DNA from: a virus
IMG/VR virus record: IMGVR_UViG_3300023179_000016
Coordinates: 1 to 64,000 of that record
Length of the DNA: 64,000 nucleotides
Reading direction: 5' to 3' (one strand)
Made by a program: the position numbers and the translations under genes. Shown piece by piece: positions 13,347 to 64,000 of this stretch. Below the pieces are notes generated by a model that was not told the DNA's origin, made no database searches, and saw only the letters and a list, made by a program, of their open reading frames with translations. How positions within the stretch are numbered: the first letter of the stretch is position 1; each line of letters begins with the position of its first letter.

Positions 13347-13763
13347 TTAGAGATGGGATGGGGACTCAAGAAATTTCTTGAGTCCCTTTATTTTTTCTTC
13401 TACAAAATATTTGTCGTTGAGCTTCCTGTTTCTTCCTGATGGGTGCGGCATATGATAAAAGCTCAACTGTAGCAGTGTCAATGCCCTTGCAGCGCTATTG
13501 CCCAACGCTATTAATTTATAGTTGTTGCGCTCATCTAATGATTTTTTAAGTCTAATCGCAGACTCCCTTATGTCTTTTGCCGACAGAGGCTTATTATCTT
13601 TAGTTTTAAGATCGCTTAGATTAAGATACTCTATAGATAGTTCTACATCTAATCTTTTTATCCATGAATCTAATACCCTCCTAGATAGAGTATCGTTATC
13701 AAAAGGTCTATTAGTAGAGGAAGAATTGCTGGGATTTGAACCGATAAAGATTATTCTTGTCAT
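13347..13763 (-). CDS. Uracil-DNA glycosylase-like superfamily protein
   Basis: FIGSNPS, IALG and HPSGRN motifs. Confidence 0.7.
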   Translation of the reverse strand: MTRIIFIGSNPSNSSSTNRPFDNDTLSRRVLDSWIKRLDVELSIEYLNLSDLKTKDNKPLSAKDIRESAIRLKKSLDERNNYKLIALGNSAARALTLLQLSFYHMPHPSGRNRKLNDKYFVEEKIKGLKKFLESPSHL

Positions 13764-26243: not shown

Positions 26244-26498
26244 CTATTTGTTTTGCCCCAATGCAATACGAGCTATTTCTTGATATGCTTCATCTAAGTA
26301 TCCGCCTATAGATGATGGGGCAATATCTCCATCTGCAATCTGTTTTAATGCTTGCTTCAAGCGGATATTTTCTCGTTTTAGTTTTACAAAAAGTTTATTA
26401 TTGCAATCGCAGAGTTTTTCCGGATAACACGATGTGTCTGTGACGTACTTGTTTTTATGTCCCCTTAGAGATTTAATTTTTTCACGTCGTTTTTTCAT
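26244..26498 (-). CDS. Small protein related to the ENARLREAL/ARAALEGK array family
   Basis: ENIRLKQALKQIA...EIARIALG. Confidence 0.55.
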   Translation of the reverse strand: MKKRREKIKSLRGHKNKYVTDTSCYPEKLCDCNNKLFVKLKRENIRLKQALKQIADGDIAPSSIGGYLDEAYQEIARIALGQNK

Positions 26499-27018
26499 AT
26501 TTTGCTTTTAACTCCGCTGGCAGTTGTTCCCAGTCGTCATCGCTGACACTGCTACGTTGCGGCTCTGACTTTTCTAGACATCTGTATTTTTTCTCTTCTG
26601 GCTTGCGGGCCTCGATGACCGGTACACTGGAAATGCCCAAGCCGGTCTCCGCAAGCATGGCATCCATCTTGGCGCCGTTGATATACAGATAATCATTGGC
26701 TATGCATGCAACAGACATTGTCAACTGTATCTCTGAGCTATATGAATAATGCTTACTGCTGAAATATGTAGACCATACATCAAATTTGACACAAAGATCG
26801 GTATTCTTATATAGGATCTTTACCGTTCTATTGCATCTCATGGGAATCTTTCTCTTACCTATGACATCGTTGAATAGCGATATACCCATGTTATAGAAAT
26901 AAGTCACGATGTCATTTTCTGAGTCACCAGATATTGCTTTGATCGCATACATGAGACTGTTGCTGATCTGCAGCGATTTAAAGATGACCGGTCTATTGTT
27001 TACCTTAGCTACTTCCAT
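26482..27018 (-). CDS. Hypothetical protein with C-terminal DWEQLPAELKAKY tag
   Basis: SD AGGAG before ATG 27018. Confidence 0.6.
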   Translation of the reverse strand: MEVAKVNNRPVIFKSLQISNSLMYAIKAISGDSENDIVTYFYNMGISLFNDVIGKRKIPMRCNRTVKILYKNTDLCVKFDVWSTYFSSKHYSYSSEIQLTMSVACIANDYLYINGAKMDAMLAETGLGISSVPVIEARKPEEKKYRCLEKSEPQRSSVSDDDWEQLPAELKAKYEKTT

Positions 27019-27019
27019 A

Positions 27020-28402
27020 TTATCTCCTTGAGCTAGAGTCTGGAACTTTAACAGTCTCACCGATTCTCTTCAGCGGATGATCCTCGGTGCCGTTCTTACT
27101 GATGATCCATAGAACTTGCGGAAATTGTTCTCCGGGTTTGAGCCATGACTCATATTCTACGTCGCCGTAGCAACCGTCTGTAATGATGATGCTGAGATCG
27201 CCTCTGCGCTTCATTACGTCTTGTAGCGTCTCCGTTAGATCTGTTCCGCCGCTCTCGATCTGCGATCTATCGATCTTGGTACCCATCTTATACGATTGAC
27301 GACCGTACGCAGCCGTGTGGAAGAAGGACATATTGCACTTGCGAGCGCCCACCTTCAAGAATTGATCTACAATCTCTAGGAATTCGTTTAATTCTTCGAT
27401 TGAGACCGAACCAGACGTATCGAGGTGTAGCTCGAGTTTGGGTAGTTCGCCGACCTTAGTACCTGGAGCCTTGAAACCAAATCGCTTAGATTTTCTAGTC
27501 CACGTAGATTTGCGATCGTGCCCTGCAGCATGCTTCTTCATCGCAGACATGATGAGGGCACGATAGTTGAGTTCTGCCCTGCGCGTCTTGATGTCGTCGA
27601 GCAATTCCTTTACATGGCCAGGCATGTCATCGTACGATAGGCGAGCCTTCACCATGGCGCGCTTGACTAGCTCCTCTGTGGCGTCAAGCATATCTTTTTC
27701 TTCTGCTGCGCCATCCCACATGTGCTCGTCCAGAGTCTGAGGAATATCACTTGATTCTGTTCCGCCGCCAGAGTTACCTTGTCCATCGCCCGACTCTTCA
27801 TCTGGATCGTCGAATCTCTTGATCAGGCGCTCGTAGTATGTCTCCATGGTCTGGTTTGCAGGCCACGGAATCTTAGCATTAGTTTTCTCGTCGAGGTCGA
27901 AGAAGTCTGCAACATCGATGCATCGACCCGGGCACATCTCGTTTGGACATTGCTCCATCTTTTCTGGAGGAGGGCAGGCAGCGCACCCTTTGGGAATGTC
28001 CTTGATGAACTGATTGATTGCCATATCGGCCGCGACATTCATGAGCATCCGCTTTCGGGCAGAGATCTTCATGAACGGTACGCGAAGTGGATGCTTATGC
28101 GTGATATGAGAGAGTTCATGTATTAGGACAGCCTTGCGCTGTGGACCTGTCAACTTCCTGCAAAAGAAAAATGGATTGATGAGCATGTCCCAACGTTTAG
28201 CATCTGTATTAAACAAGATGCCTGCAGTCGGCAGAGTGTGCGAATAAGAGATAGTTAGACATTGCAGAACAGACCCGAGGAATGGGTGTGTCTTTGATGT
28301 CTCGTAGATCGCGGTGGCCAGACATTGAGTCTTCTCCTCCACGGTGACAAACTCTTTGTCCATTATATCTTTGGTTATGTTAGGCCTAATTCTAGACGAC
28401 AT
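27020..28402 (-). CDS. VWA domain / putative metallopeptidase (DUF2201-like)
   Basis: HELSH, AADMAIN, DTSGS MIDAS, GGTD, ITDG; SD AAGGAG before ATG 28402. Confidence 0.85.
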   Translation of the reverse strand: MSSRIRPNITKDIMDKEFVTVEEKTQCLATAIYETSKTHPFLGSVLQCLTISYSHTLPTAGILFNTDAKRWDMLINPFFFCRKLTGPQRKAVLIHELSHITHKHPLRVPFMKISARKRMLMNVAADMAINQFIKDIPKGCAACPPPEKMEQCPNEMCPGRCIDVADFFDLDEKTNAKIPWPANQTMETYYERLIKRFDDPDEESGDGQGNSGGGTESSDIPQTLDEHMWDGAAEEKDMLDATEELVKRAMVKARLSYDDMPGHVKELLDDIKTRRAELNYRALIMSAMKKHAAGHDRKSTWTRKSKRFGFKAPGTKVGELPKLELHLDTSGSVSIEELNEFLEIVDQFLKVGARKCNMSFFHTAAYGRQSYKMGTKIDRSQIESGGTDLTETLQDVMKRRGDLSIIITDGCYGDVEYESWLKPGEQFPQVLWIISKNGTEDHPLKRIGETVKVPDSSSRR

Positions 28403-30880: not shown

Positions 30881-31708
30881 ATGAAGATAGAATTAGATGA
30901 GCTTTTAGCATACGGCGTAGACATTAAAAATAGAAAGATATACTTCGGTTCTCCTCTGGACGGCATAGACAATGAGTCTATAGGTGATTTTACTCAGGCT
31001 TCCATAGAGTTGGCGGTCAGAGCCCTACATAAGCTGTCGGCAGATGCTCCTGGTAAACCAATAGAGATATATATGAATAGCTATGGTGGTTCGCCATACG
31101 ATATGTTGCGTCTTCACGACGAGATATTGGCAAGCCCATGTCAGATAAAGTTCATCGGTAGCGGTGTCATAATGTCTGCAGCCACATGGATAATGGTGGC
31201 ATGCGATGAGCGGTTGCTTCACCCCAATACTACAGTCATGGTGCACGACGGCACTGATGGTTTTGAAGGAAAACATACGGATGCTCAGATTCAAGCAGCG
31301 GAGATGAAGAGACTTCAAACGCTGCTATATCAAATATATGCTGTAAATTCTAGAATGCCTAAGGAGTTTTGGGAAGACGTGTGTCAAAGAGACCTGTATT
31401 TAACAGCAGATGAGGCCATAATGCTGGGATTGGCAGATAAGATAATAGAGCCAAGAAAGAGAGGCAACTTAAGAAAGGCGAGACAGTCCGCTTTAAAGAA
31501 AGTGCCCTCCAGCAAGGACATGAAGAACCTCATACACGGTATATACGCTAGGATAAATAAGTTAAAGGTTCCTAAAATAGAACTGAACGAGATTAAAAAA
31601 GAACCCGTTGATCCTAACTTAGTTCTTCAAGAAAATCAACCAGAGCAAAACAAAAATGCGCCGGCAGAGGTGTTAATCTCGCCGGCGCATCAATCTGTTA
31701 TCGCCTAA
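30881..31708 (+). CDS. clpP: ClpP-family protease
   Basis: YMNSYGGS, MSAA (Ser), VMVHD (His), RDLYLTADEA...GLAD (Asp). Confidence 0.85.
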   Translation: MKIELDELLAYGVDIKNRKIYFGSPLDGIDNESIGDFTQASIELAVRALHKLSADAPGKPIEIYMNSYGGSPYDMLRLHDEILASPCQIKFIGSGVIMSAATWIMVACDERLLHPNTTVMVHDGTDGFEGKHTDAQIQAAEMKRLQTLLYQIYAVNSRMPKEFWEDVCQRDLYLTADEAIMLGLADKIIEPRKRGNLRKARQSALKKVPSSKDMKNLIHGIYARINKLKVPKIELNEIKKEPVDPNLVLQENQPEQNKNAPAEVLISPAHQSVIA

Positions 31709-37567: not shown

Positions 37568-37885
37568 TTATTGTTCTGTCAGAGATTTTTCTAGATCTTG
37601 ATCAAATGTCATGCTGTAGGCAACAGCGGCGCACTCCTCGACTATCTTAACAAAGTACTCGTCTTTAAAGGCCGGATGGTCTGAAGTGGAAATGGCTTTG
37701 CACACTTCATATTTAACCCGCTCTTGGTTTGGAAAAGATGGCTCATCGGTGAACGATTCAACTGCCTTAAGCAGTTCTTCCGGGACAGGTATATTAAAGT
37801 GGCGCCAGAAATCTAGCGCGCTCTGACAATCTCTTGCCGAGATGACCACTTTACCTTCATTTGCAGCAGTAGTTTCTTTGCTCAT
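37568..37885 (-). CDS. Hypothetical protein
   Basis: ATGA-coupled to the ClpP gene. Confidence 0.6.
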   Translation of the reverse strand: MSKETTAANEGKVVISARDCQSALDFWRHFNIPVPEELLKAVESFTDEPSFPNQERVKYEVCKAISTSDHPAFKDEYFVKIVEECAAVAYSMTFDQDLEKSLTEQ

Positions 37886-38553
37886 TTTTCCACCCGTTGT
37901 TTTTTAATATCGGATTTTTGTTTCTTAGTCTTCTTTATTTTAGGACTTAGAGTGGTTTTATTGTGCTTATCTATCATTGGTTTTTCGGGTGTCTGAACTA
38001 TTTCATACATAAGATTGGATACTATCTTAGGCGTCCCTATTGCGTCTATGATACCAAATTTTAAAGCTGAGGGGGCATCCATATATCTATCCCTGCCATC
38101 TTGCTTTTTTATAAGCTCTCTAATCTCTTCATAATCTTTGAATCCGCAGTTCTTAGCTAGGAGGCCTAAAAAGTGCTCGTTTAATCTTTTGGTCTCAGTG
38201 ATGTCTGCATGCATATCGTGGACATCGCCTGCGGTCCCAGAGCTTGTCTCGTGCACCATAACCCTACTGTGCTTACCGCAGAACCTAATGTCTCCGTGGC
38301 TCAATAAGATGGCTCCGCAAGACATAGCCTTACCCATGCAGGTTGTAACTACCGTATTTGGTATTTCATCTATCGTCTCTATCATTTTAGCCAGGGCATC
38401 AACGGAGCCGCCATAGGAATCGATGTATACCATTATTGGTCTTCTTGGGTCCATTCTAGATTGATTTAAGATGGCATCTCTAAACTTTTGAGCAGATTCC
38501 TCGTCAAACTTAGTCACCCAAATCTCATGAGATCTCACGAAGTCATCTTCCAT
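37882..38553 (-). CDS. clpP: Second ClpP-family protease
   Basis: YIDSYGGSV, GKAMSCG, VMVHE, DRYMDA..ALKFGIID. Confidence 0.85.
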   Translation of the reverse strand: MEDDFVRSHEIWVTKFDEESAQKFRDAILNQSRMDPRRPIMVYIDSYGGSVDALAKMIETIDEIPNTVVTTCMGKAMSCGAILLSHGDIRFCGKHSRVMVHETSSGTAGDVHDMHADITETKRLNEHFLGLLAKNCGFKDYEEIRELIKKQDGRDRYMDAPSALKFGIIDAIGTPKIVSNLMYEIVQTPEKPMIDKHNKTTLSPKIKKTKKQKSDIKKQRVEK

Positions 38554-42875: not shown

Positions 42876-42894
42876 TCATGCAACTGTAGCAGTG

Positions 42895-43323
42895 TCAGCC
42901 CGCGGGAACGTTCTTGCGGGCTGACTTTGCTAACTTATCACATGCCTCGTTATTCAAATCACCTGAGTGACTTTTGACCCATGTAGTCTGTAAATTTAAT
43001 TTAGAACTAAGCTCTTTCAATTCAAGATATAGAGTTATCAAATGTTGCGCCTTACACGAATAAGTGCCATCTGCGTAACCTAATACAAGTTTAGAATCAC
43101 TGATAAGTGAATATGTTTTCTTGTCAGAAAGATTCTTGCATATCTCTAATGCCTTTTTTAAACCTTCAATTGCGCCACGTAGTTCAGCAGAGTTATTTGT
43201 TGCATCTTTTATGTGCCCAGAATCTTCTGCAACTAATTTACCGTCTATTAATATTCTATATGCCCATCCGCCATTCTTAGTCTGCGTATTTCCAGATCCG
43301 TCAGAGTATATATCTACATCCAT
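42895..43323 (-). CDS. rnhA: Ribonuclease HI
   Basis: IYSDGS, GGW, TNN.AEL, SDS, WVKSHSG..NEACDKLA. Confidence 0.9.
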   Translation of the reverse strand: MDVDIYSDGSGNTQTKNGGWAYRILIDGKLVAEDSGHIKDATNNSAELRGAIEGLKKALEICKNLSDKKTYSLISDSKLVLGYADGTYSCKAQHLITLYLELKELSSKLNLQTTWVKSHSGDLNNEACDKLAKSARKNVPAG

Positions 43324-48940: not shown

Positions 48941-49432
48941 TTAGCTAGCGATGAATTTAGCAGCGAGTTCTGGCGGGAGAACAGAGTAATCGATTGTAGT
49001 GTTCATCTTATTTGTCTGAGAAATCTCAGCAGTCCTGTTGTCGATGTGGCCCTGAACCTCAGCGATCTCGCTGGGATCGGTGAGAGTGGAAAGAAGGGCA
49101 CGAAGCGCTTTTAGCTGAGGGTCAGAAGAACCCTTACGAGAACCAGGATTCTTTGCTGCATAAGATACGCCGCCGTTCAAGCGAGTATCTTTGCGGAGCC
49201 AATTTGACTGAAGACCGGAGACATACGCCCGCAGCTCAGAAGCGTTAAAACTCTTATCAAGAGCGATGTTTCCAGCAGAAAAACCTTCTACCAGAATTTG
49301 GTTAACCTGCAACCGCAGTTCACGAGTCATCATCGAGCTGATATTGTCGCCCTCAGATACCGTGATATTGTTCTCAGCCAGAACGTTCATAACTGCTGAA
49401 TAGACTGCTTCTTTTTGAGTTTGCTTAGACAT
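48941..49432 (-). CDS. QKEAV/NWLRKDxRLNGG paralogue family protein
   Basis: QKEAVY...YVSGLQSNWLRKDTRLNGG...DPQLKALRALL...IDYSVLPPELAAKF; SD AGGAG. Confidence 0.85.
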   Translation of the reverse strand: MSKQTQKEAVYSAVMNVLAENNITVSEGDNISSMMTRELRLQVNQILVEGFSAGNIALDKSFNASELRAYVSGLQSNWLRKDTRLNGGVSYAAKNPGSRKGSSDPQLKALRALLSTLTDPSEIAEVQGHIDNRTAEISQTNKMNTTIDYSVLPPELAAKFIAS

Positions 49433-49997: not shown

Positions 49998-50073
49998 TGG
50001 TGGGCGAGGTGGGAATTGAACCCACTACCAAAGGTTTATAAGACCCCTATGCAAACCGGTACACCTCTCGCCC
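49998..50073 (-). tRNA. tRNA-Ile (TAT)
   Basis: GGGCGAG...GGGGT CT TAT AA ACCTT...GTGGG TTCAATT CCCAC CTCGCCC A CCA. Confidence 0.8.
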
Positions 50074-53084: not shown

Positions 53085-54020
53085 ATGCGAGTTACTCCTG
53101 AGCAAATAAAGAAGTATCTTGATATGTATGTTATTGGCCAAGATCAAGCAAAAAAAGCCTTATCTGTCGCTGCATATAATCACAATAAGAGAGTTAATTC
53201 TAGCGGCAACTTGAAGAAATCAAACGTGTTGTTAATCGGCCCTACTGGGTCAGGTAAGACTTATATGGTAACACTATTGGCGCATATGTTGAATGTAAAG
53301 TTCATATCAGTTGATGCCACGCAGTTTACTAGTTCAGGCTATGCTGGAAGAGATGTCGAAGAAATAGCGTTCGAGATAATGTCAGCATGTGACGGTGACG
53401 AGAGCGAAGCTGTAAAATCTATAGTGCACATAGATGAAATAGATAAGATAAGAAAAAAGACCACACACAATGGTGTTTCAGATATAAACGGCGTGGAAGT
53501 TCAACAGGCGCTATTAAAGATGATAGAGGGTACAGATCTAAGTTATGCATCCACCGGATCCAAAACGGACCCACATGATAGAAAACTAAACACAAACAAT
53601 ATCATGTTTATATGTTCCGGTGCATTTGTTGGTCTGGAAAATTCCACGTCGCAGTCTTTGGTGAAATTTGGGATAATACCTGAATTTTTGGGCAGATTTT
53701 CTACTATTGCTACGTTGAATTCCTTGAGCGCATCAGATTTAAAGTCGATAATATTAGACTCTAAAGGATCAATTCTTGAATCTTACAAGGAGTGGTTCTC
53801 GAGTGAGGGCATAGAATTATCTGTTTCTGAGGATGGTTTGGATTGTATTGTAGAGAGAGCACTACTAAAAAACGTGGGGGCGAGAGGTCTACACGGCACT
53901 ATAGATGAAGCTCTACTTAATGCTCAGTTTGAAGCTCCAGGTCTAGTAATAAAACCTAAAGCCTTAATCATAAACAGAAATATGGTAGAGACTGGCATAG
54001 CAAACTGGGTATATGCTTAA
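53085..54020 (+). CDS. clpX: ClpX-like AAA+ unfoldase lacking the Zn-binding domain and IGF loop
   Basis: YVIGQD.AKK.LSVAAYNH, KSNVLLIGPTGSGKT, IDEIDKI, VQQALLKMIEG, FGIIPEFLGR, GARGL. Confidence 0.88.
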   Translation: MRVTPEQIKKYLDMYVIGQDQAKKALSVAAYNHNKRVNSSGNLKKSNVLLIGPTGSGKTYMVTLLAHMLNVKFISVDATQFTSSGYAGRDVEEIAFEIMSACDGDESEAVKSIVHIDEIDKIRKKTTHNGVSDINGVEVQQALLKMIEGTDLSYASTGSKTDPHDRKLNTNNIMFICSGAFVGLENSTSQSLVKFGIIPEFLGRFSTIATLNSLSASDLKSIILDSKGSILESYKEWFSSEGIELSVSEDGLDCIVERALLKNVGARGLHGTIDEALLNAQFEAPGLVIKPKALIINRNMVETGIANWVYA

Positions 54021-55058: not shown

Positions 55059-55075
55059 CCGCTGCATTTGGCGGC

Positions 55076-55103
55076 GTAGCGGTGTCAGCCGCGCGGCTGA
55101 CAC
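55076..55103 (-). terminator. Example of hairpin + GACACYGCYAC element at the 3' end of a minus-strand unit
   Basis: GTAGCG GTGTCAGCCGCGCGGCTGACAC between convergent genes; nine same-orientation copies in the window. Confidence 0.5.
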
Positions 55104-55114
55104 ACTCGAGCAAG

Positions 55115-57711: not shown

Positions 57712-57850
57712 AGGTCTAAATCCTCCTCGATTCCAGCGGATATAATCTCGGGGAAAAGTCGACCGCGCAGAAAAGAGAAGTCCACGCACGTCCCTCATAG
57801 ACACACGTGGACCTCTCTATATCAGCCGGGCTCGCGACCCAACAACCAAC

Positions 57851-58333
57851 TCACTCGCCAGACGTTGCCGTCGGAGCAAACTTGGCAGCGAGCTCCGGGG
57901 GCAGAGCACTGAGGTCGATCGTCGGCTGCTTGGACCGAGCGATCTCGGCGACCCGGGCATCGATGTGGGCCTGGACCTCAGCCCGGTCAGTGACGTCGGT
58001 GAGCGTTCCGAGCAGGGCTCGAAGAGCCTTGAGCTGCGGATCACCAGAACCAGAGCGAGAGCCAGGGTTCTTAGCCACATATGCGACCCCACCGTTCAGC
58101 CGCTTGTCCTTTCGGAGCCAGTTGCTCTGCAGGCCAGAGACATAGGCCTTCAGCTGCTGGTCGGTGAACTCCGTATCGAGCTCGATAGCTCCACCGCGGA
58201 ACCCCTCGAACAGGATCTGGTTCACCATGGCCCGCTCCTCACGGGACATCTCGACTGCACTCGAGAACTCGGTAGTTCCCTTGACGTTGACGACTGCACC
58301 ATAGACTGCTTCTTTCTGACTCATCTTGCTCAT
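57851..58333 (-). CDS. QKEAV/NWLRKDxRLNGG paralogue family protein
   Basis: QKEAVY...NWLRKDKRLNGG...IDLSALPPELAAKF. Confidence 0.85.
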   Translation of the reverse strand: MSKMSQKEAVYGAVVNVKGTTEFSSAVEMSREERAMVNQILFEGFRGGAIELDTEFTDQQLKAYVSGLQSNWLRKDKRLNGGVAYVAKNPGSRSGSGDPQLKALRALLGTLTDVTDRAEVQAHIDARVAEIARSKQPTIDLSALPPELAAKFAPTATSGE

Positions 58334-59322
58334 AACTAACGTTCCTCCGTTGTTGTTCTATAAGATCGGGATATCGGTCACCACGACCGGTATCTTCACC
58401 TATGGGGTGTTCGGTACTCACTCAAAACTGGCTACTTCCGCGTCTGCTGTGGCTACCTACTGCTTGCCGCCTGCCTCCACTGGGGAGAGCTCCACTCGCG
58501 CTACTCCCTGCTCTCTACATCATTACCACCTAGATATATGTTCGGGATAATGGGATGTCGTGTAAGTCGCTGATACTATTGGTGGGGAAGGTTGGTGTGG
58601 AAGGGGTGTAACGGTGCCCACCTGAGTCACACTGAGTCTGACCCGACCTGCACGTCGCACTCACCGAGACTCCCCGATACCCGTCCAGACAGCCGATCGG
58701 GCTCGTGAGGTCATAGGCTCGGCTGCACCCGACAGCCGGCGTAGCAGTGTCGGCGCGCGCTGAAAAGCAGTGGGTAGGGCAAGCAGCCGCTATTATATAG
58801 CCCGGCCAGGGCCATGTGCTGCCAGATCCCTACCCACGGACGCTTGTTGATCCCTTACTGCCTGAGTCTAGCCGTCGTCAGACAGGTCACCAACCTGTTA
58901 CGACCTCTAGATCGTTTCGGCCTTGGAAAGACTCACGTATCCGGGTACGGTTTTGAGAGCCACCCATCATACATATTCAGCAGGAGACAGAACCGTACAA
59001 GATTCTCCTACCGGTTAGACAATACATCCCGGTACTTCCGTCTAACAAGAGTACCGGATTTACCCCTCACTTTACCCGGACTAGGGACCGGTCACCGATA
59101 AGTGTCCTGGCTAGGACCACCGGTGAGTGGAAAACTGACTTACTTTCTGAGGCAGATGATCGGGAGCAGCGCGCGTGTTTCTGCGCCGAGAAGAAAAGCT
59201 ACGAGCGCATGACAGAAAAGCGTCTAATCCTACCAAGGCGGGCGCCGGGAATTGACCCGCCCACCCAGCGACCGCCCGATAAACCGCTGTTTTTTGAGCC
59301 TAGCTAACCTCCGGGGCGTGGC

Positions 59323-59592
59323 TCATTTCCCCTCCAGCGCGGCGCGGGCAATACTTGGCAATGCACAATCACAGGACTTCCCAAATTGAATGTCGCACCG
59401 TTCATGGTGAATGGTCAGATATTGCTTCAGCGCCTCCCGAAGCCTGGCGTTTTCAGCGCTGACTTCCTCGATTGCGACACGATACCCAGCCAAAAACACT
59501 TCTATGTCAATGTGCATTACAGATGCGTCTTTCTGATAGGCTGGGAATCGCTGCTTTAGATATTCTTCTGCCAGTTTTTCGGCTCTAGTCAT
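59323..59592 (-). CDS. Array unit 5 (ENARLREAL...ARAALEGK)
   Basis: Start codon supplied by the preceding repeat (GGAGGGGAAATGA). Confidence 0.7.
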   Translation of the reverse strand: MTRAEKLAEEYLKQRFPAYQKDASVMHIDIEVFLAGYRVAIEEVSAENARLREALKQYLTIHHERCDIQFGKSCDCALPSIARAALEGK

Positions 59593-59792
59593 TTCCCCTC
59601 CAGCGCGGCGCGGGCGATCGATGCGCCACAAAGACAACCAGCGGTATAGTCACAACCTTCATCATGGGCGGCAAATCTTTCCAGCGCCTCCCGAAGCCGG
59701 GCGTTCTCGGCTTCCATTTCGGCTCGTCCGGATTCGTAACCCTGTTGCCATCCTGAGCACGTTCCCTTGCATGGGTGATTCAGCTTGTTCAT
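59589..59792 (-). CDS. Array unit 4
   Basis: ENARLREAL...ARAALEGK. Confidence 0.7.
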   Translation of the reverse strand: MNKLNHPCKGTCSGWQQGYESGRAEMEAENARLREALERFAAHDEGCDYTAGCLCGASIARAALEGK

Positions 59793-60019
59793 TACTTCCC
59801 CTCCAGCGCGGCGCGGGCTTCAATTACTTCCTGTCTAAGTTCATCCCAAGCCTGACCTAGCTCTTCGTCCAGCAGAAGAGCCTCATCCACTTTATTGGTG
59901 ATCTTGCGAAGCGCCTCCCGAAGCCGGGTGTTTTCGGCTAAGAATCGATTCCTGGCCTCTTCAAATCCCCGCAACCACACCAATTCATCCGGACTTCCCG
60001 CCTCAGGTCTTGTGCTCAT
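59792..60019 (-). CDS. Array unit 3
   Basis: ENTRLREAL...ARAALEGK. Confidence 0.7.
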   Translation of the reverse strand: MSTRPEAGSPDELVWLRGFEEARNRFLAENTRLREALRKITNKVDEALLLDEELGQAWDELRQEVIEARAALEGK

Positions 60020-60233
60020 TTAGTTTCTCCATAACATTGGCAGGGAGCATCTTTTCGTCTTCTAAAAAGACGTAATCGTACCCATCCGCGTGTTTCATCA
60101 GGTCTTCTTTTAACGAGCGAATGTCGGAGCTTATCCACTGTCCTAGAACCTGACCGTCTTCAGTGACACACACACCAACCACGTCCCAACCCGGGCTGGA
60201 CCCAAAGATCGGAAATCCATAAGCCTTCTTCAT
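60003..60233 (-). CDS. Non-repeat gene embedded in the array
   Basis: MKKAYGFP start supplied by repeat A; lacks both motifs. Confidence 0.6.
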   Translation of the reverse strand: MKKAYGFPIFGSSPGWDVVGVCVTEDGQVLGQWISSDIRSLKEDLMKHADGYDYVFLEDEKMLPANVMEKLNEHKT

Positions 60234-60565
60234 GCTTCCCTCCCCTCCAGCGCGGCACGGGCTGCACACTGCAGGCACCCCTGGTCGGAATAGCTGCACC
60301 GCTCATCGTGCCCACGGACCATTTCTTTCAGCGCCTCTCGCAGTCGTGCATTCTCAGACCGAAGCATAATTACCTCGTTAAGCCACTGCGGTGGCTCAAT
60401 AATGAGGTAAGACATACCCGCCCTTGTCCCCGGTGGATCGGACAAATGAATTTGTAAAGGCTCTGATGAGGCCAGTACGCAAGCATGGTCCTGAAGCGTG
60501 TTCAGTGAAACTTCTGCACCGCAGCGGGAGCATTTCCCAATTTTGTCGTTTGTAAAAAGGCTCAT
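60230..60565 (-). CDS. Array unit 2
   Basis: MSLFTN...ENARLREAL...ARAALEGREA. Confidence 0.7.
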   Translation of the reverse strand: MSLFTNDKIGKCSRCGAEVSLNTLQDHACVLASSEPLQIHLSDPPGTRAGMSYLIIEPPQWLNEVIMLRSENARLREALKEMVRGHDERCSYSDQGCLQCAARAALEGREA

Positions 60566-60804
60566 TTCCCCTCCAGCGCGGCGCGGGCGATATTTCCGAG
60601 CGTGCAATCGCAGAATCGAGCAGCGTCCAGCGGTGGGTTATCCCGCGAGGCGCAATCGTGGAAATGCGTGTAAGCGTACTCCTCCAGCGCCTCCCGAAGC
60701 CGGGCATTTTCAGCTTCAAGCTCTTTCATTTTTGTAGTGACTTCTTGGTTATACCGATCGGCAGAATCCAGCATGTCCTTTGTGAGATCCAATTCATCCT
60801 TCAC
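60562..60804 (-). CDS. Array unit 1
   Basis: SD AAGGAG then GTG; ENARLREAL...ARAALEGK. Confidence 0.7.
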   Translation of the reverse strand: MKDELDLTKDMLDSADRYNQEVTTKMKELEAENARLREALEEYAYTHFHDCASRDNPPLDAARFCDCTLGNIARAALEGK

Positions 60805-61404: not shown

Positions 61405-61528
61405 TCATATCCTCCATACATGGAATTATATGATCGGGATCGGGTGGGATTCGGTTATATAGTCGGCGTGGCGGTGTCGGTCGGCGAGCAGCCGGGCGGA
61501 GCTTCCTTGCTCCGCCTGCTCACTCAGG

Positions 61529-61879
61529 TTACTTGGAGTAGGCGACCACACCGTACAGTAGTCCGTTACCGGAACCATCGACTGGTTCGTCGACCATCTT
61601 GTATCCGAAAAGCTCCATGTTGTAGTTGAGTGCGTCGAGCATGTGGTCGATCCACTCGTTGAGTTCATGAGCATCGTCGGGTTTCAAGCCGTCGTCTGCG
61701 TAGTCATAGTGGACGACTATATCGCCCAACTTTATTGAAGGAAGAACTCCGTAGTTAGAGATGTTGGTCGGATCGATCGCTTCGACATACATGCTGCCAG
61801 GCATGTCACACTTGGCCTGGTGCGGAGCAGTTGACTCGAGATTGCTCACCAGTTTCACTACGGTGTTCATGTTAGCCAT
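61529..61879 (-). CDS. Acidic hypothetical cassette gene
   Basis: Leader duplicated with that of 62668-62925. Confidence 0.7.
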   Translation of the reverse strand: MANMNTVVKLVSNLESTAPHQAKCDMPGSMYVEAIDPTNISNYGVLPSIKLGDIVVHYDYADDGLKPDDAHELNEWIDHMLDALNYNMELFGYKMVDEPVDGSGNGLLYGVVAYSK

Positions 61880-61945
61880 CAGGCAGACCTCTGGGTTATG
61901 AGTTAATTATTTAACCCATCGACAATTATATATAATGTCGGTAAT
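61876..61945 (-). promoter_or_regulatory. Promoter + hairpin leader + SD, duplicated at 62922-62995
   Basis: ATTACCGACATTATATATAA...GATG(A/G)GTTAAATAATTAACTCATAACC..GAGGTCTGCCTGATG in both copies. Confidence 0.8.
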
Positions 61946-62020
61946 GAGTTTACGGGTGGCGTAGCAGTGTCAGCGAGCAGCTGGGCGGAGCTTCCTTGCT
62001 CCGCCCAACCGCAGGTCAGC

Positions 62021-62488
62021 TCAGGCCTTGAACTTCGCGGCCAGCTCTGCAGGCAGCTGGCTGAAGTCGATGGCGGGCTTCGCGGGCTTGGCGATCTCGG
62101 CACTCCTGAGGTCGATGAAGTGCTGGATCTCAGCCCTGTCGGCCGGGTCAGTCACCGTGCTGAGCAGGGCCTTGAGAGCCTTGATCTGCGGGTCGCCAGA
62201 GCCAGAGCGAGCACCAGGGTTCTTGGTGACCCAGGTAGTCCCGCCGTTGAGTCGCTGGTCCTTGCGGAGCCAGTTGTTCACGAGGCCGACCACGTACTTC
62301 TTGAGCTCCGGCTCAGAGAAGTTGGCCTTGAGGGTGATCTTACCCTCCTTGAACATGGTGACCAGCTCCGAGTGGATCTGGGCCAGCTCAGACTTGCTGG
62401 GCGTGTGAGCTCCGTTAGGAGCGAACTGAGTGCAGAAGCAGCTGACGACATTGAAGACCGCTTCCTTCTGGTTCATTGCTGCGATCAT
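62021..62488 (-). CDS. QKEAV/NWLRKDxRLNGG paralogue family protein
   Basis: SD GGAGG before ATG 62488; NWLRKDQRLNGG...IDFSQLPAELAAKF. Confidence 0.85.
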   Translation of the reverse strand: MIAAMNQKEAVFNVVSCFCTQFAPNGAHTPSKSELAQIHSELVTMFKEGKITLKANFSEPELKKYVVGLVNNWLRKDQRLNGGTTWVTKNPGARSGSGDPQIKALKALLSTVTDPADRAEIQHFIDLRSAEIAKPAKPAIDFSQLPAELAAKFKA

Positions 62489-62667
62489 GCGGGTTTCCTC
62501 CGTTGGTTGGTTGTAGGTTCGGGCGCGAGCTGTAAACTCGAGCATCATGCGCTCGACATTTACAATTAGATATAAGATCGGGGGAAGTCGGTATGCGGCC
62601 GGCGTAGCAGTGTCACGGCGCGCGGACCAAAGGGTGGGGTCGTCCATGACCCCACCGTATCAGCGAC

Positions 62668-62925
62668 TCAACCGGTCAGCAGGTCGTTCCAGTCGACTGG
62701 TACGTAGCACTCGCCGGTCTCGCGGGCGAACTCGGATGGAGTGGGTTCGCGGCCGACTCGCACGTGCTGGTCGAGCTCCTCGATGTAGACGACCGACGGT
62801 TCGGAGTCAGTGACCTCATAGAAGTACTGATCAGCGTCCGCATCCAGCATCTCCCGCTGGATTCCCTCGTGGGTGACGAGGACGGTATAGTCGGTGCACG
62901 GCACAATAGAGATGAGTTTCACCAT
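62668..62925 (-). CDS. Acidic hypothetical cassette gene
   Basis: SD GGAGG; shared leader. Confidence 0.7.
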   Translation of the reverse strand: MVKLISIVPCTDYTVLVTHEGIQREMLDADADQYFYEVTDSEPSVVYIEELDQHVRVGREPTPSEFARETGECYVPVDWNDLLTG

Positions 62926-63084
62926 CAGGCAGACCTCCAGGTTATGAGTTAATTATTTAACTCATCATTCACTTTTATATATAATGTCGGTAATAGGACA
63001 CCAGGCGTAGCAGTGTCGGTGGCTCGAGCTACCGAGCCCGCTGCGGGGCGGAGCTTCCGTGCTCCGCCCCGACCCGCTCTTCGC

Positions 63085-63522
63085 TCAGCGCTTGCCGAAC
63101 TTGGCTGCGATCTCTGCAGGCAGCTTGCTGAAGTCGACCTTGGGTCGGTTCAGCTCGGCGATCCGAGAGTCGATGTGTCGCTGGATCTCAGCTCGATCCG
63201 TCGGGTCGGTGATGGTGCTGAGCAGAGCCCTGAGCGCAGTCAGCTGGGGATCATCGACTCGGGAGGACTTGGGTTGGTGATCGACCCCACCGTTCAGCCG
63301 CTTGTCCTTTCGGAGCCAGTTGTTGAGCAACCCTGAGACATAGTTGCTCAGCTCCTTGTCGGTGTACTCCTTCCTGAGCTCGATGCTCCCGTTCCTGAAC
63401 CCCTCGAACAAGACCTGACGGATGGTTCGGGTCTGCTCAGAAGTCGGCTCGCAGACGCCGACTCCATCGAACCCGGTGATCGCGACCACTGCCTGGTAGA
63501 CTGCTTCCTTCTGGTTCATCAT
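63085..63522 (-). CDS. QKEAV/NWLRKDxRLNGG paralogue family protein
   Basis: SD GAGGAG before ATG 63522; NWLRKDKRLNGG...VDFSKLPAEIAAKF. Confidence 0.85.
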   Translation of the reverse strand: MMNQKEAVYQAVVAITGFDGVGVCEPTSEQTRTIRQVLFEGFRNGSIELRKEYTDKELSNYVSGLLNNWLRKDKRLNGGVDHQPKSSRVDDPQLTALRALLSTITDPTDRAEIQRHIDSRIAELNRPKVDFSKLPAEIAAKFGKR

Positions 63523-64000
63523 GCGATGCTCCTCATGATCCATTGTAGGATCAGTTGACACATCCATGCGTCGGGTTGATTGATATGTAATGTCAGTACA
63601 ACATCACACATCAACATGTAAGATCAGTATTTAATTAAATACCAATCATTTACATATAGATATAAGATCGGAAATCGTCGGGAAGAGATCATCCGAAAAT
63701 AGGGCCCGCCGACCTCGACTTACAAGGGATCCCTAGAGTCGGGACCGGTACACGCTGCGCGAACGCTCTCTACATGCAACTTTTTATAAAATAGGGCCCG
63801 CCACCCTTGCTCCCTAATAGGTACAATTTAACCGGTACCTCTTTTGCCTATTATATAAAAATAAACTCATGAAGACCTATCATTTTAAGAAAGACAACGA
63901 GATACACTCTAGCATACCGAGAATAAAATTAACCGCTCTGCTTCTTCTCCTGAAGATAACGACGATCAAGGACCTAAACCTAGAACACATATGACACGCG

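What the first reader, a model, noticed from the sequence alone, without database searches (positions are those of the whole stretch)
61494..63572. Five RNA hairpins presenting the CsrA/RsmA consensus CANGGANG in the loop
Seen on the minus (sense) strand: GC-AAGGAA-GC (61494-61517 and 61982-62007), UC-AUGGAC-GA (62633-62656), GC-ACGGAA-GC (63044-63071) and GC-AUGGAU-GU (63557-63572). Three unrelated stem sequences all keep a C-G-closed ANGGAN hexaloop and have no U-tract. Established: CANGGANG in a hexaloop is the high-affinity CsrA/RsmA/RsmE site. Inference: abundant early transcripts carry 3'-UTR decoys that titrate host CsrA (a distributed CsrB/RsmZ-like sponge), or they recruit CsrA for stability or translational control.
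Basis: partly seen in the sequence, partly recalled or inferred. Interest (0 to 1): 0.8.

Follow-up and report, generated by a model that had tools for sequence, protein, structure and literature searches.

The report
CsrA-type loops capping phage early genes
An uncultured lake phage ends its small early genes with RNA hairpins whose six-letter tips match the docking site of the bacterial regulator CsrA, while sister phages put ordinary extra-stable loops on the same stems at the same places, so the hairpins are real gene-end signals but CsrA binding is untested and the host is unknown.

Summary
Confirmed. Five sense-strand hairpins with C-ANGGAN-G loops lie at the stated places (5 observed, 0.016 expected in shuffles). 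Four are strong and start 8-13 nt after a stop codon. The fifth is weak and lies in a leader, but covaries in relatives.

The four strong ones are the stem-loop part of a repeated PeSL-like cassette (hairpin, CTGACACTGCTACGC box, CCGA-N3-TATA promoter-like motif) in a 153-kb phage distantly related to Myxococcus phage Mx1.

Across the family the loop is under selection: 64 sense versus 1 antisense, 25 stem cores. But the first hairpin after one orthologous gene carries UUCG (27), GNRA (16), ANGGAN (14) or other loops (62), sometimes on the same stem. The core job is therefore a cistron-end hairpin; ANGGAN is a lineage-specific cap, most likely read by host CsrA.

A CsrB-like sponge is unlikely: one site per gene, 400-650 nt apart. 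No csrA in 43 family records (9 near-complete); host unknown. A phage of a cyanobacterium, a group I recall lacking CsrA, has similar loops, so a CsrA-independent reading stays open. This scan noted the same pattern on other phage DNA; I found no paper on it.

The parts
63557..63572 (-). Leader hairpin, loop AUGGAU, 5 bp; about 34 nt upstream of the start codon region of the 144-aa paralog gene; not a 3' element
   Evidence: all 5 pairs kept in 7 distinct orthologous leaders, 2 pairs with changes on both sides
63536..63553 (-). Second leader palindrome (5-6 bp) overlapping a promoter-like motif; holds a second GGA ahead of the Shine-Dalgarno
   Evidence: 5-bp stem visible in all rows of alignment A3, compensatory change in two (read by eye)
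63085..63519 (-). Paralog A of an unnamed helical phage protein family (144 aa)
   Evidence: no Pfam/PHROG match (8, 9); no clear fold match for the family model (39, 40)
63044..63071 (-). Cistron-end hairpin, loop ACGGAA, 11 bp, 13 nt after stop
63005..63017 (-). Conserved box GACACTGCTACGC
62980..62990 (-). Promoter-like CCGA-N3-TATA motif (inferred)
62668..62925 (-). Orphan ORF, 85 aa
   Evidence: no family match (8, 9)
62633..62656 (-). Cistron-end hairpin, loop AUGGAC, 9 bp, 11 nt after stop; the only full A/U-C-ANGGAN-G-U/A match
62602..62614 (-). Conserved box
62571..62581 (-). Promoter-like CCGA-N3-TATA motif (inferred)
62021..62488 (-). Paralog B (155 aa)
61977..62012 (-). Cistron-end hairpin, loop AAGGAA, 15 bp, 8 nt after stop
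61959..61971 (-). Conserved box
61931..61941 (-). Promoter-like CCGA-N3-TATA motif (inferred)
61529..61879 (-). Orphan ORF, 116 aa
61492..61518 (-). Cistron-end hairpin, loop AAGGAA, 8-bp core with extension, 12 nt after stop
61466..61478 (-). Degenerate box
61427..61466 (-). Two tandem promoter-like motifs (inferred)
58739..58751 (-). Box without an ANGGAN hairpin, upstream of paralog C
57851..58333 (-). Paralog C (160 aa)
57774..57818 (-). 20-bp hairpin after paralog C with a non-GGA loop (AUGAG)
55074..55104 (-). Box preceded by a hairpin with a non-GGA loop

Best explanation
The hairpins are RNA end-signals of single-gene early cassettes. Each cassette runs: stop codon, GC-rich hairpin about 8-20 nt later, a DNA box, a phage-type -10 promoter, next small gene. 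The hairpin marks and protects the mRNA 3' end or processing product, and may attenuate read-through. Shown: the anatomy, strand bias, covariation and loop exchange between lineages. Inferred: the RNA role. In most of the family the cap is an intrinsically stable UUCG or GNRA loop, or another loop. In this lineage and at least one other it is ANGGAN, most plausibly because host CsrA/RsmA binds it and shields or times the decay of these early messages (inferred from the match to the known site; binding untested). The fifth hairpin, with a second GGA and the Shine-Dalgarno 20-35 nt downstream, may be a glgC-type translational control site for paralog A (inferred).
For: Far beyond chance. 64 sense vs 1 antisense ANGGAN hairpins, 25 different 4-bp stem cores, C-G closure in 56/64, G rare at loop positions 2 and 6; RsmN tolerates any base but G at position 2; RsmE consensus in PMC5864733. 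44 of 55 start within 40 nt of a stop codon. First hairpin after the orthologous gene: UUCG 27, GNRA 16, ANGGAN 14, other 62; one stem core occurs with all three loop classes. UUCG and GNRA are also sense-biased, 36:2 and 39:7, so the hairpins act as RNA. ANGGAN-rich G000 and G006 are not sisters in an 8,202-column core tree. CsrA protects flhDC mRNA and CsrB from RNase E (PMC7652899). Single ANGGAN hairpins also lie 7-8 nt after stop codons in lambda and T4, whose host has CsrA.
Against: Host unknown; no csrA in the phage or 42 related records. The pair under the closing pair is G-C or C-G in 46/64, not the consensus A-U/U-A. CLIP peaks of CsrA/RsmA concentrate at 5' UTRs, not after stop codons. 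CsrB-type AGGAN pentaloops are almost absent (1). Cyanophage P-SSP7 has intergenic AAGGAC-loop hairpins, and from my own knowledge cyanobacteria lack CsrA. U-tracts are rare, so intrinsic termination is not shown.
Confidence: 0.45

Rival explanations
1. CsrA-independent loop: C-ANGGAN-G is a third favoured hairpin cap (intrinsically stable or nuclease-resistant, or read by another host or phage protein or a nuclease), used interchangeably with UUCG and GNRA at gene ends. The CsrA match is convergent.
For: Loops are interchangeable on the same stems at the same position. Strict hexaloop, no CsrB-type pentaloops. G-C rather than A-U under the closing pair. Similar loops in cyanophage P-SSP7. AUGAN pentaloops without GG occur at equivalent sites, including this genome.
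Against: I know of no special stability for this hexaloop (own knowledge, not tested). No plausible reader gene is shared by G000 and G006 and missing from the ANGGAN-poor genomes, though G006 is only 41% complete. The P-SSP7 case is one region with short stems. Lineage-wide switching fits a host factor.
Confidence: 0.3
2. Distributed sponge: abundant early transcripts carry these sites to titrate host CsrA and derepress or disturb host regulons.
For: High-affinity-type sites on what are probably strong early transcripts; up to 8-11 per early region in relatives.
Against: One site per gene, 413-650 nt apart, 1-2 ANGGA words per gap, no multi-GGA small RNA; no Rfam match. The single-hairpin sRNA SPA0079 binds RsmA/N yet did not titrate it. 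Most family members do without the loop. The fixed spacing from the stop codon is not needed for a decoy.
Confidence: 0.12
3. DNA-level or neutral origin: the palindromes serve recombination or cruciform formation in shuffling cassettes, and the loop was spread by gene conversion without selection on it.
For: Three of five are copies of one stem; one core makes up 28 of 64. A recombinant junction falls exactly in the 16-nt box. PeSL stem-loops were proposed as recombination targets (PMC2839356).
Against: 25 stem cores share the loop; 64:1 strand bias; the mapped crossover is in the box, not the hairpin; hairpins without a box keep the loop.
Confidence: 0.08

Closest known systems
High-affinity CsrA/RsmA/RsmE RNA site (RsmE-hcnA, PDB 2JPP; SELEX CANGGAYG hexaloop; CLIP ANGGA in apical loops)
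   Same: ANGGAN hexaloop closed by C-G on the transcribed strand; G avoided at position 2.
   Different: Mostly G-C under the closing pair; long GC-rich stems; located after stop codons, not on the ribosome-binding site; single sites; no cognate csrA in the phage.
PeSL cassettes of T4-type phages (Arbiol 2010, PMC2839356; Comeau 2014, PMC4122927)
   Same: Repeated intergenic stem-loop plus early promoter flanking small orphan genes in a variable region; recombination between cassettes (junction in the box).
   Different: Not a T4-like phage; promoter is a CCGA-N3-TATA -10-only motif, not sigma70; extra conserved box; fixed ANGGAN loop; terminator activity not tested here.
CsrB/CsrC/RsmY/RsmZ sponge sRNAs
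   Same: GGA shown in hairpin loops.
   Different: No dedicated small RNA, no cluster of sites, no Rfam match.
CsrA protection of flhDC mRNA and CsrB from RNase E (PMC7652899)
   Same: Precedent for CsrA binding that stabilises an RNA.
   Different: Those cases use two or more sites and, for flhDC, the 5' end; a single post-stop 3' site has no precedent that I found.
Myxococcus phage Mx1 (OR576727)
   Same: Nearest cultured relative: about 24 core genes at 24-40% identity.
   Different: No cassette box, no ANGGAN array, no paralog family, no csrA; it does not establish the host.

Membership tests
CsrA/RsmE high-affinity site | ANGGA(N) in the apical loop of a hairpin on the RNA strand | tested here: met
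   64 sense vs 1 antisense in the family
CsrA/RsmE high-affinity site | C-G pair closing the hexaloop | tested here: met
   5/5 in the window; 56/64 in the family
CsrA/RsmE high-affinity site | A-U or U-A as the next pair (A/U CANGGANG U/A) | tested here: not met
   1/5 in the window, 18/64 in the family; the CANGGAYG SELEX consensus does not demand it
CsrA/RsmE high-affinity site | A CsrA protein is present in the infected cell | tested here: inconclusive
   none in G000 or 42 related records, many partial; host not identified
CsrA/RsmE high-affinity site | GGA-dependent binding | not testable with these tools
   needs EMSA or CLIP
CsrA translational operator (glgC type) | Hairpin site just upstream of a second GGA in the Shine-Dalgarno | tested here: inconclusive
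   fits only the fifth hairpin; for the other four a promoter-like motif lies between hairpin and next gene
CsrB/RsmZ sponge sRNA | Dedicated non-coding RNA with many closely spaced GGA sites | tested here: not met
   sites 413-650 nt apart, 1-2 ANGGA per gap; no Rfam match
PeSL cassette | Repeated intergenic stem-loop followed by an early promoter, flanking small orphan genes | tested here: met
   promoter function is inferred from the motif
PeSL cassette | sigma70 -35/-10 promoter in a T4-type phage | tested here: not met
   no sigma70 excess; CCGA-N3-TATA without a -35; Mx1-like core genes
PeSL cassette | Recombination between cassettes | tested here: met
   one contig (L353) is a chimera of two cassettes of L354 with the crossover in the 16-nt box; single case, assembly error not fully excluded
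PeSL cassette | Stem-loop terminates transcription | not testable with these tools
   no RNA run listed
Intrinsic (Rho-independent) terminator | U-tract after the stem | tested here: not met
   1 of 55 ANGGAN hairpins; none called at these sites
REP/RAYT system | Y1 transposase gene with GTAG-footed palindromes | tested here: not met
   no PF01797 in the genome; hairpin-to-box gap varies from 0 to over 30 nt

The most novel reading that the evidence does not exclude
Some lineages of this phage family replaced self-stabilising UUCG/GNRA loops with CsrA docking loops at the ends of nearly all early genes, so that the host's global regulator caps phage mRNA 3' ends and ties early gene expression to the host's CsrA state. 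This would be a use of CsrA (single post-stop sites on viral messages) that I found in no paper.
Probability: 0.3. Interest if true: 0.75.

Novelty: new variant of a known kind. Interest (0 to 1): 0.5.

Why it matters
CsrA is known mainly as a 5' UTR repressor held in check by sponge RNAs, and in some bacteria it controls CRISPR-Cas (PMC8450108, abstract). Fixed CsrA-type loops after phage stop codons would point to an unrecognised 3'-end role and a way for phages to read host physiology. This family gives a natural swap series (same stem, same position, UUCG vs GNRA vs ANGGAN), so the question is testable in E. coli without the host; lambda and T4 carry single examples.

Tried and rejected
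Phage-encoded CsrA: none in G000, 42 related records or Mx1; two sub-threshold hits lie inside long unrelated frames.

Rfam: nothing in the early regions except tRNA matches.

REP/RAYT: no Y1 transposase.

Trans-acting hammerhead ribozyme aimed at the box (lead from e1-3293241): no core next to a box complement in 12 family genomes or Mx1.

Host search: MAG labels (Cytophagales, Saccharibacteria) disagree and are probably mis-bins; cluster names and Atlas taxa were uninformative. The resemblance of CCGA-N3-TATA to the Bdellovibrio FliA -10 box CCGATA, with a functional CsrA in that genus, is only a hint, since no -35 is present.

Expression: no RNA holder listed; DNA contigs confirm the assembly in lake and freshwater runs of two studies, one of which may be the source of this DNA.

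Blastn of the hairpin against cultured phages and plasmids: chance hits only.

Fold search of the paralog: best Z 5.4, no clear match.

My recollection that GGAM-1 is a CsrA-binding motif was wrong; it is a guanidine riboswitch.

My second-helix columns were misplaced; only helix 1 of that call is used.

Full report
SETTING. The window is the first 64 kb of a 153,399-nt virus record (40% GC, 91% complete) found in lake and freshwater DNA runs. About 24 core genes match Myxococcus phage Mx1 at 24-40% identity. The finding lies in a GC-rich (about 55%) stretch of small minus-strand genes, probably the early region (inference).

OBSERVATION. All five hairpins exist as described. Four are strong (z -2.7 to -5.8); the fifth is weak (z -1.1). 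Five C-ANGGAN-G hairpins in 3 kb compare with 0.016 in shuffles, and the four long ones are the only such hairpins with stems of 8 bp or more in the genome (0.08 expected). Three share one stem. None has a U-tract. Four start 8-13 nt after a stop codon; the fifth is in a leader.

WHAT SURROUNDS THEM. Each strong hairpin is followed by a box, GACAC(T/C)GC(T/C)ACGC, and then by CCGA-N3-TATA ahead of the next gene. Two of the genes are paralogs of an unnamed family with over 2,000 homologs and no known domain or clear fold match. The hairpin-box-promoter unit recurs 207 times in related loci. The box behaves as a DNA site: its distance to the promoter motif peaks near 20, 28-29 and 37-38 bp, best period 10.5 (R 0.42, jittered null at most 0.27; related loci are not independent). 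Its core is about 20-125 times over-represented in every family genome examined, in both orientations and inside genes. One contig is an exact chimera of two cassettes with the crossover inside the 16-nt box. This is the layout of T4 PeSL cassettes, with a different promoter type.

IS THE LOOP SELECTED? Yes. In 205 family loci there are 64 distinct ANGGAN hairpins on the sense strand and one on the antisense strand, on 25 stem cores, closed by C-G in 56. ANGGAN is the commonest 6-nt spacing among strong stems (44 of 199). G is rare at loop positions 2 (3/64) and 6 (5/64). In a set of relatives nearly every early intergenic gap has one, 44 of 55 within 40 nt of a stop. The weak fifth hairpin is kept at the same leader position in seven distinct sequences, all five pairs intact, two with changes on both sides.

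IS IT ESSENTIAL? No. The first hairpin after the orthologous paralog gene has UUCG in 27 cases, GNRA in 16, ANGGAN in 14 and other loops in 62, with similar energies and few U-tracts. One stem core is seen with all three named loops. Of the 12 largely complete or long family records, only G000 and G006 have the array, and they are not sisters in the core-gene tree. That means two gains, cassette transfer, or repeated loss; the tree does not tell which. ANGGAN hairpins sit slightly further from the stop (median 14.5 vs 10-11 nt; p 0.0006 on non-independent data). This genome also has cassette or post-stop hairpins with other loops (57774-57818, 55088-55104).

WHO READS THE LOOP? CsrA/RsmA is the only protein I know with this specificity, and the avoidance of G at position 2 fits RsmN data. 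The phage family encodes no detectable CsrA, so it would be the host's, and the host is unknown. Against CsrA: the next pair is usually G-C or C-G; CLIP peaks lie at 5' UTRs; CsrB-type pentaloops are missing. A spot check found single post-stop examples in lambda (after Q) and T4 (after genes 60 and nrdC.4), none in a Pelagibacter phage, but also a cluster of AAGGAC loops in an intergenic stretch of Prochlorococcus phage P-SSP7. From my own knowledge cyanobacteria lack CsrA, so this is a mild counter-hint. Five phages are too few for a test.

MECHANISM. Shown: anatomy, strand bias, covariation, loop exchange between lineages, one crossover in the box. Inferred: the hairpins define or protect early mRNA 3' ends beyond the terminating ribosome, and in this lineage bound host CsrA takes the place of a self-stabilising tetraloop (0.45). 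Rivals: a CsrA-independent cap or another reader (0.30); a distributed sponge (0.12), weakened by single sites 413-650 nt apart and by SPA0079, which binds RsmA/N without titrating it; DNA-level or neutral spread (0.08). The fifth hairpin with its downstream GGA and Shine-Dalgarno could be a glgC-type operator, but a promoter-like motif right after it may leave it out of some transcripts.

NOVELTY. The parts are known (CsrA site, PeSL cassette). Their combination was not found in my literature searches; csrA genes in phages are published. Earlier unchecked notes of this scan describe the same post-stop hairpins in several other phages; I treat them as leads, not support. What this case adds is the loop-swap series on identical stems. 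Verdict: real, new variant of a known kind, interest 0.5.

Noticed in passing
window 13469-13479, 26545-26555, 31158-31168, 42886-42896 and family genomes G001-G042: The box core GACAC(T/C)GCT(A/T)C is about 20-125 times over-represented in every family genome examined, dispersed in both orientations and inside genes, and absent in excess from Mx1. It looks like a Chi-like or genome-marking protein site, beyond its place in the cassettes.
   Followed up: partly
family loci, box to promoter motif: Spacing is phased at about 10.5 bp, suggesting a DNA-bound activator upstream of -10-only promoters.
   Followed up: partly
L353:1-60 vs L354:5821 and 7776: Exact recombinant junction inside the 16-nt box; fits a 1,955-bp mini-circle or tandem duplication.
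   Followed up: partly
window 63085-63519, 62021-62488, 57851-58333, 48941-49432 (and a distant C-terminal match at 26482-27060): Four to five copies of an unnamed helical protein with an invariant NWLRKD-RLNG stretch; multi-copy in relatives; weak winged-helix-like hits only (Z under 5). A candidate binder of the box, untested.
   Followed up: partly
window 61898-61919 and 62944-62965: Two copies of a 22-bp AT-rich palindrome between promoter motif and start codon; possible operator.
   Followed up: no
window 59323-60804: Five small genes sharing ENARLREAL and ARAALEGK joints; already noted as e1-5826585.
   Followed up: no
L581:2424-2636 (Prochlorococcus phage P-SSP7): Unannotated intergenic cluster of about six AAGGA-type words, two in short hairpin loops, just before a tRNA-like 3' fragment. 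It looks like a CsrA sponge in a phage whose host group is thought to lack CsrA.
   Followed up: partly
L578:44518-44533 (lambda, after Q); L580 near 2445 and 49903 (T4): Single ANGGAN hexaloop hairpins 7-8 nt after stop codons in model phages; direct test sites.
   Followed up: partly
window 49998-50073: tRNA-Ile called with a TAT anticodon, rare in bacteria; three more tRNAs (Asn, Leu, Arg) in the window.
   Followed up: no
window 30881-31708, 37882-38553, 53085-54020: Two ClpP-like genes and one ClpX-like gene; also GMP reductase-like, B12-dependent RNR and ThyX genes.
   Followed up: no
L353:776 / L354:6567 / L054:10438: An inverted copy of the box directly after an ANGGAN hairpin and before a promoter motif, consistent with an orientation-tolerant DNA site.
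   Followed up: no
window 58400-59300: About 0.9 kb without long ORFs, with a box and several hairpins; only sub-threshold Rfam hits.
   Followed up: no
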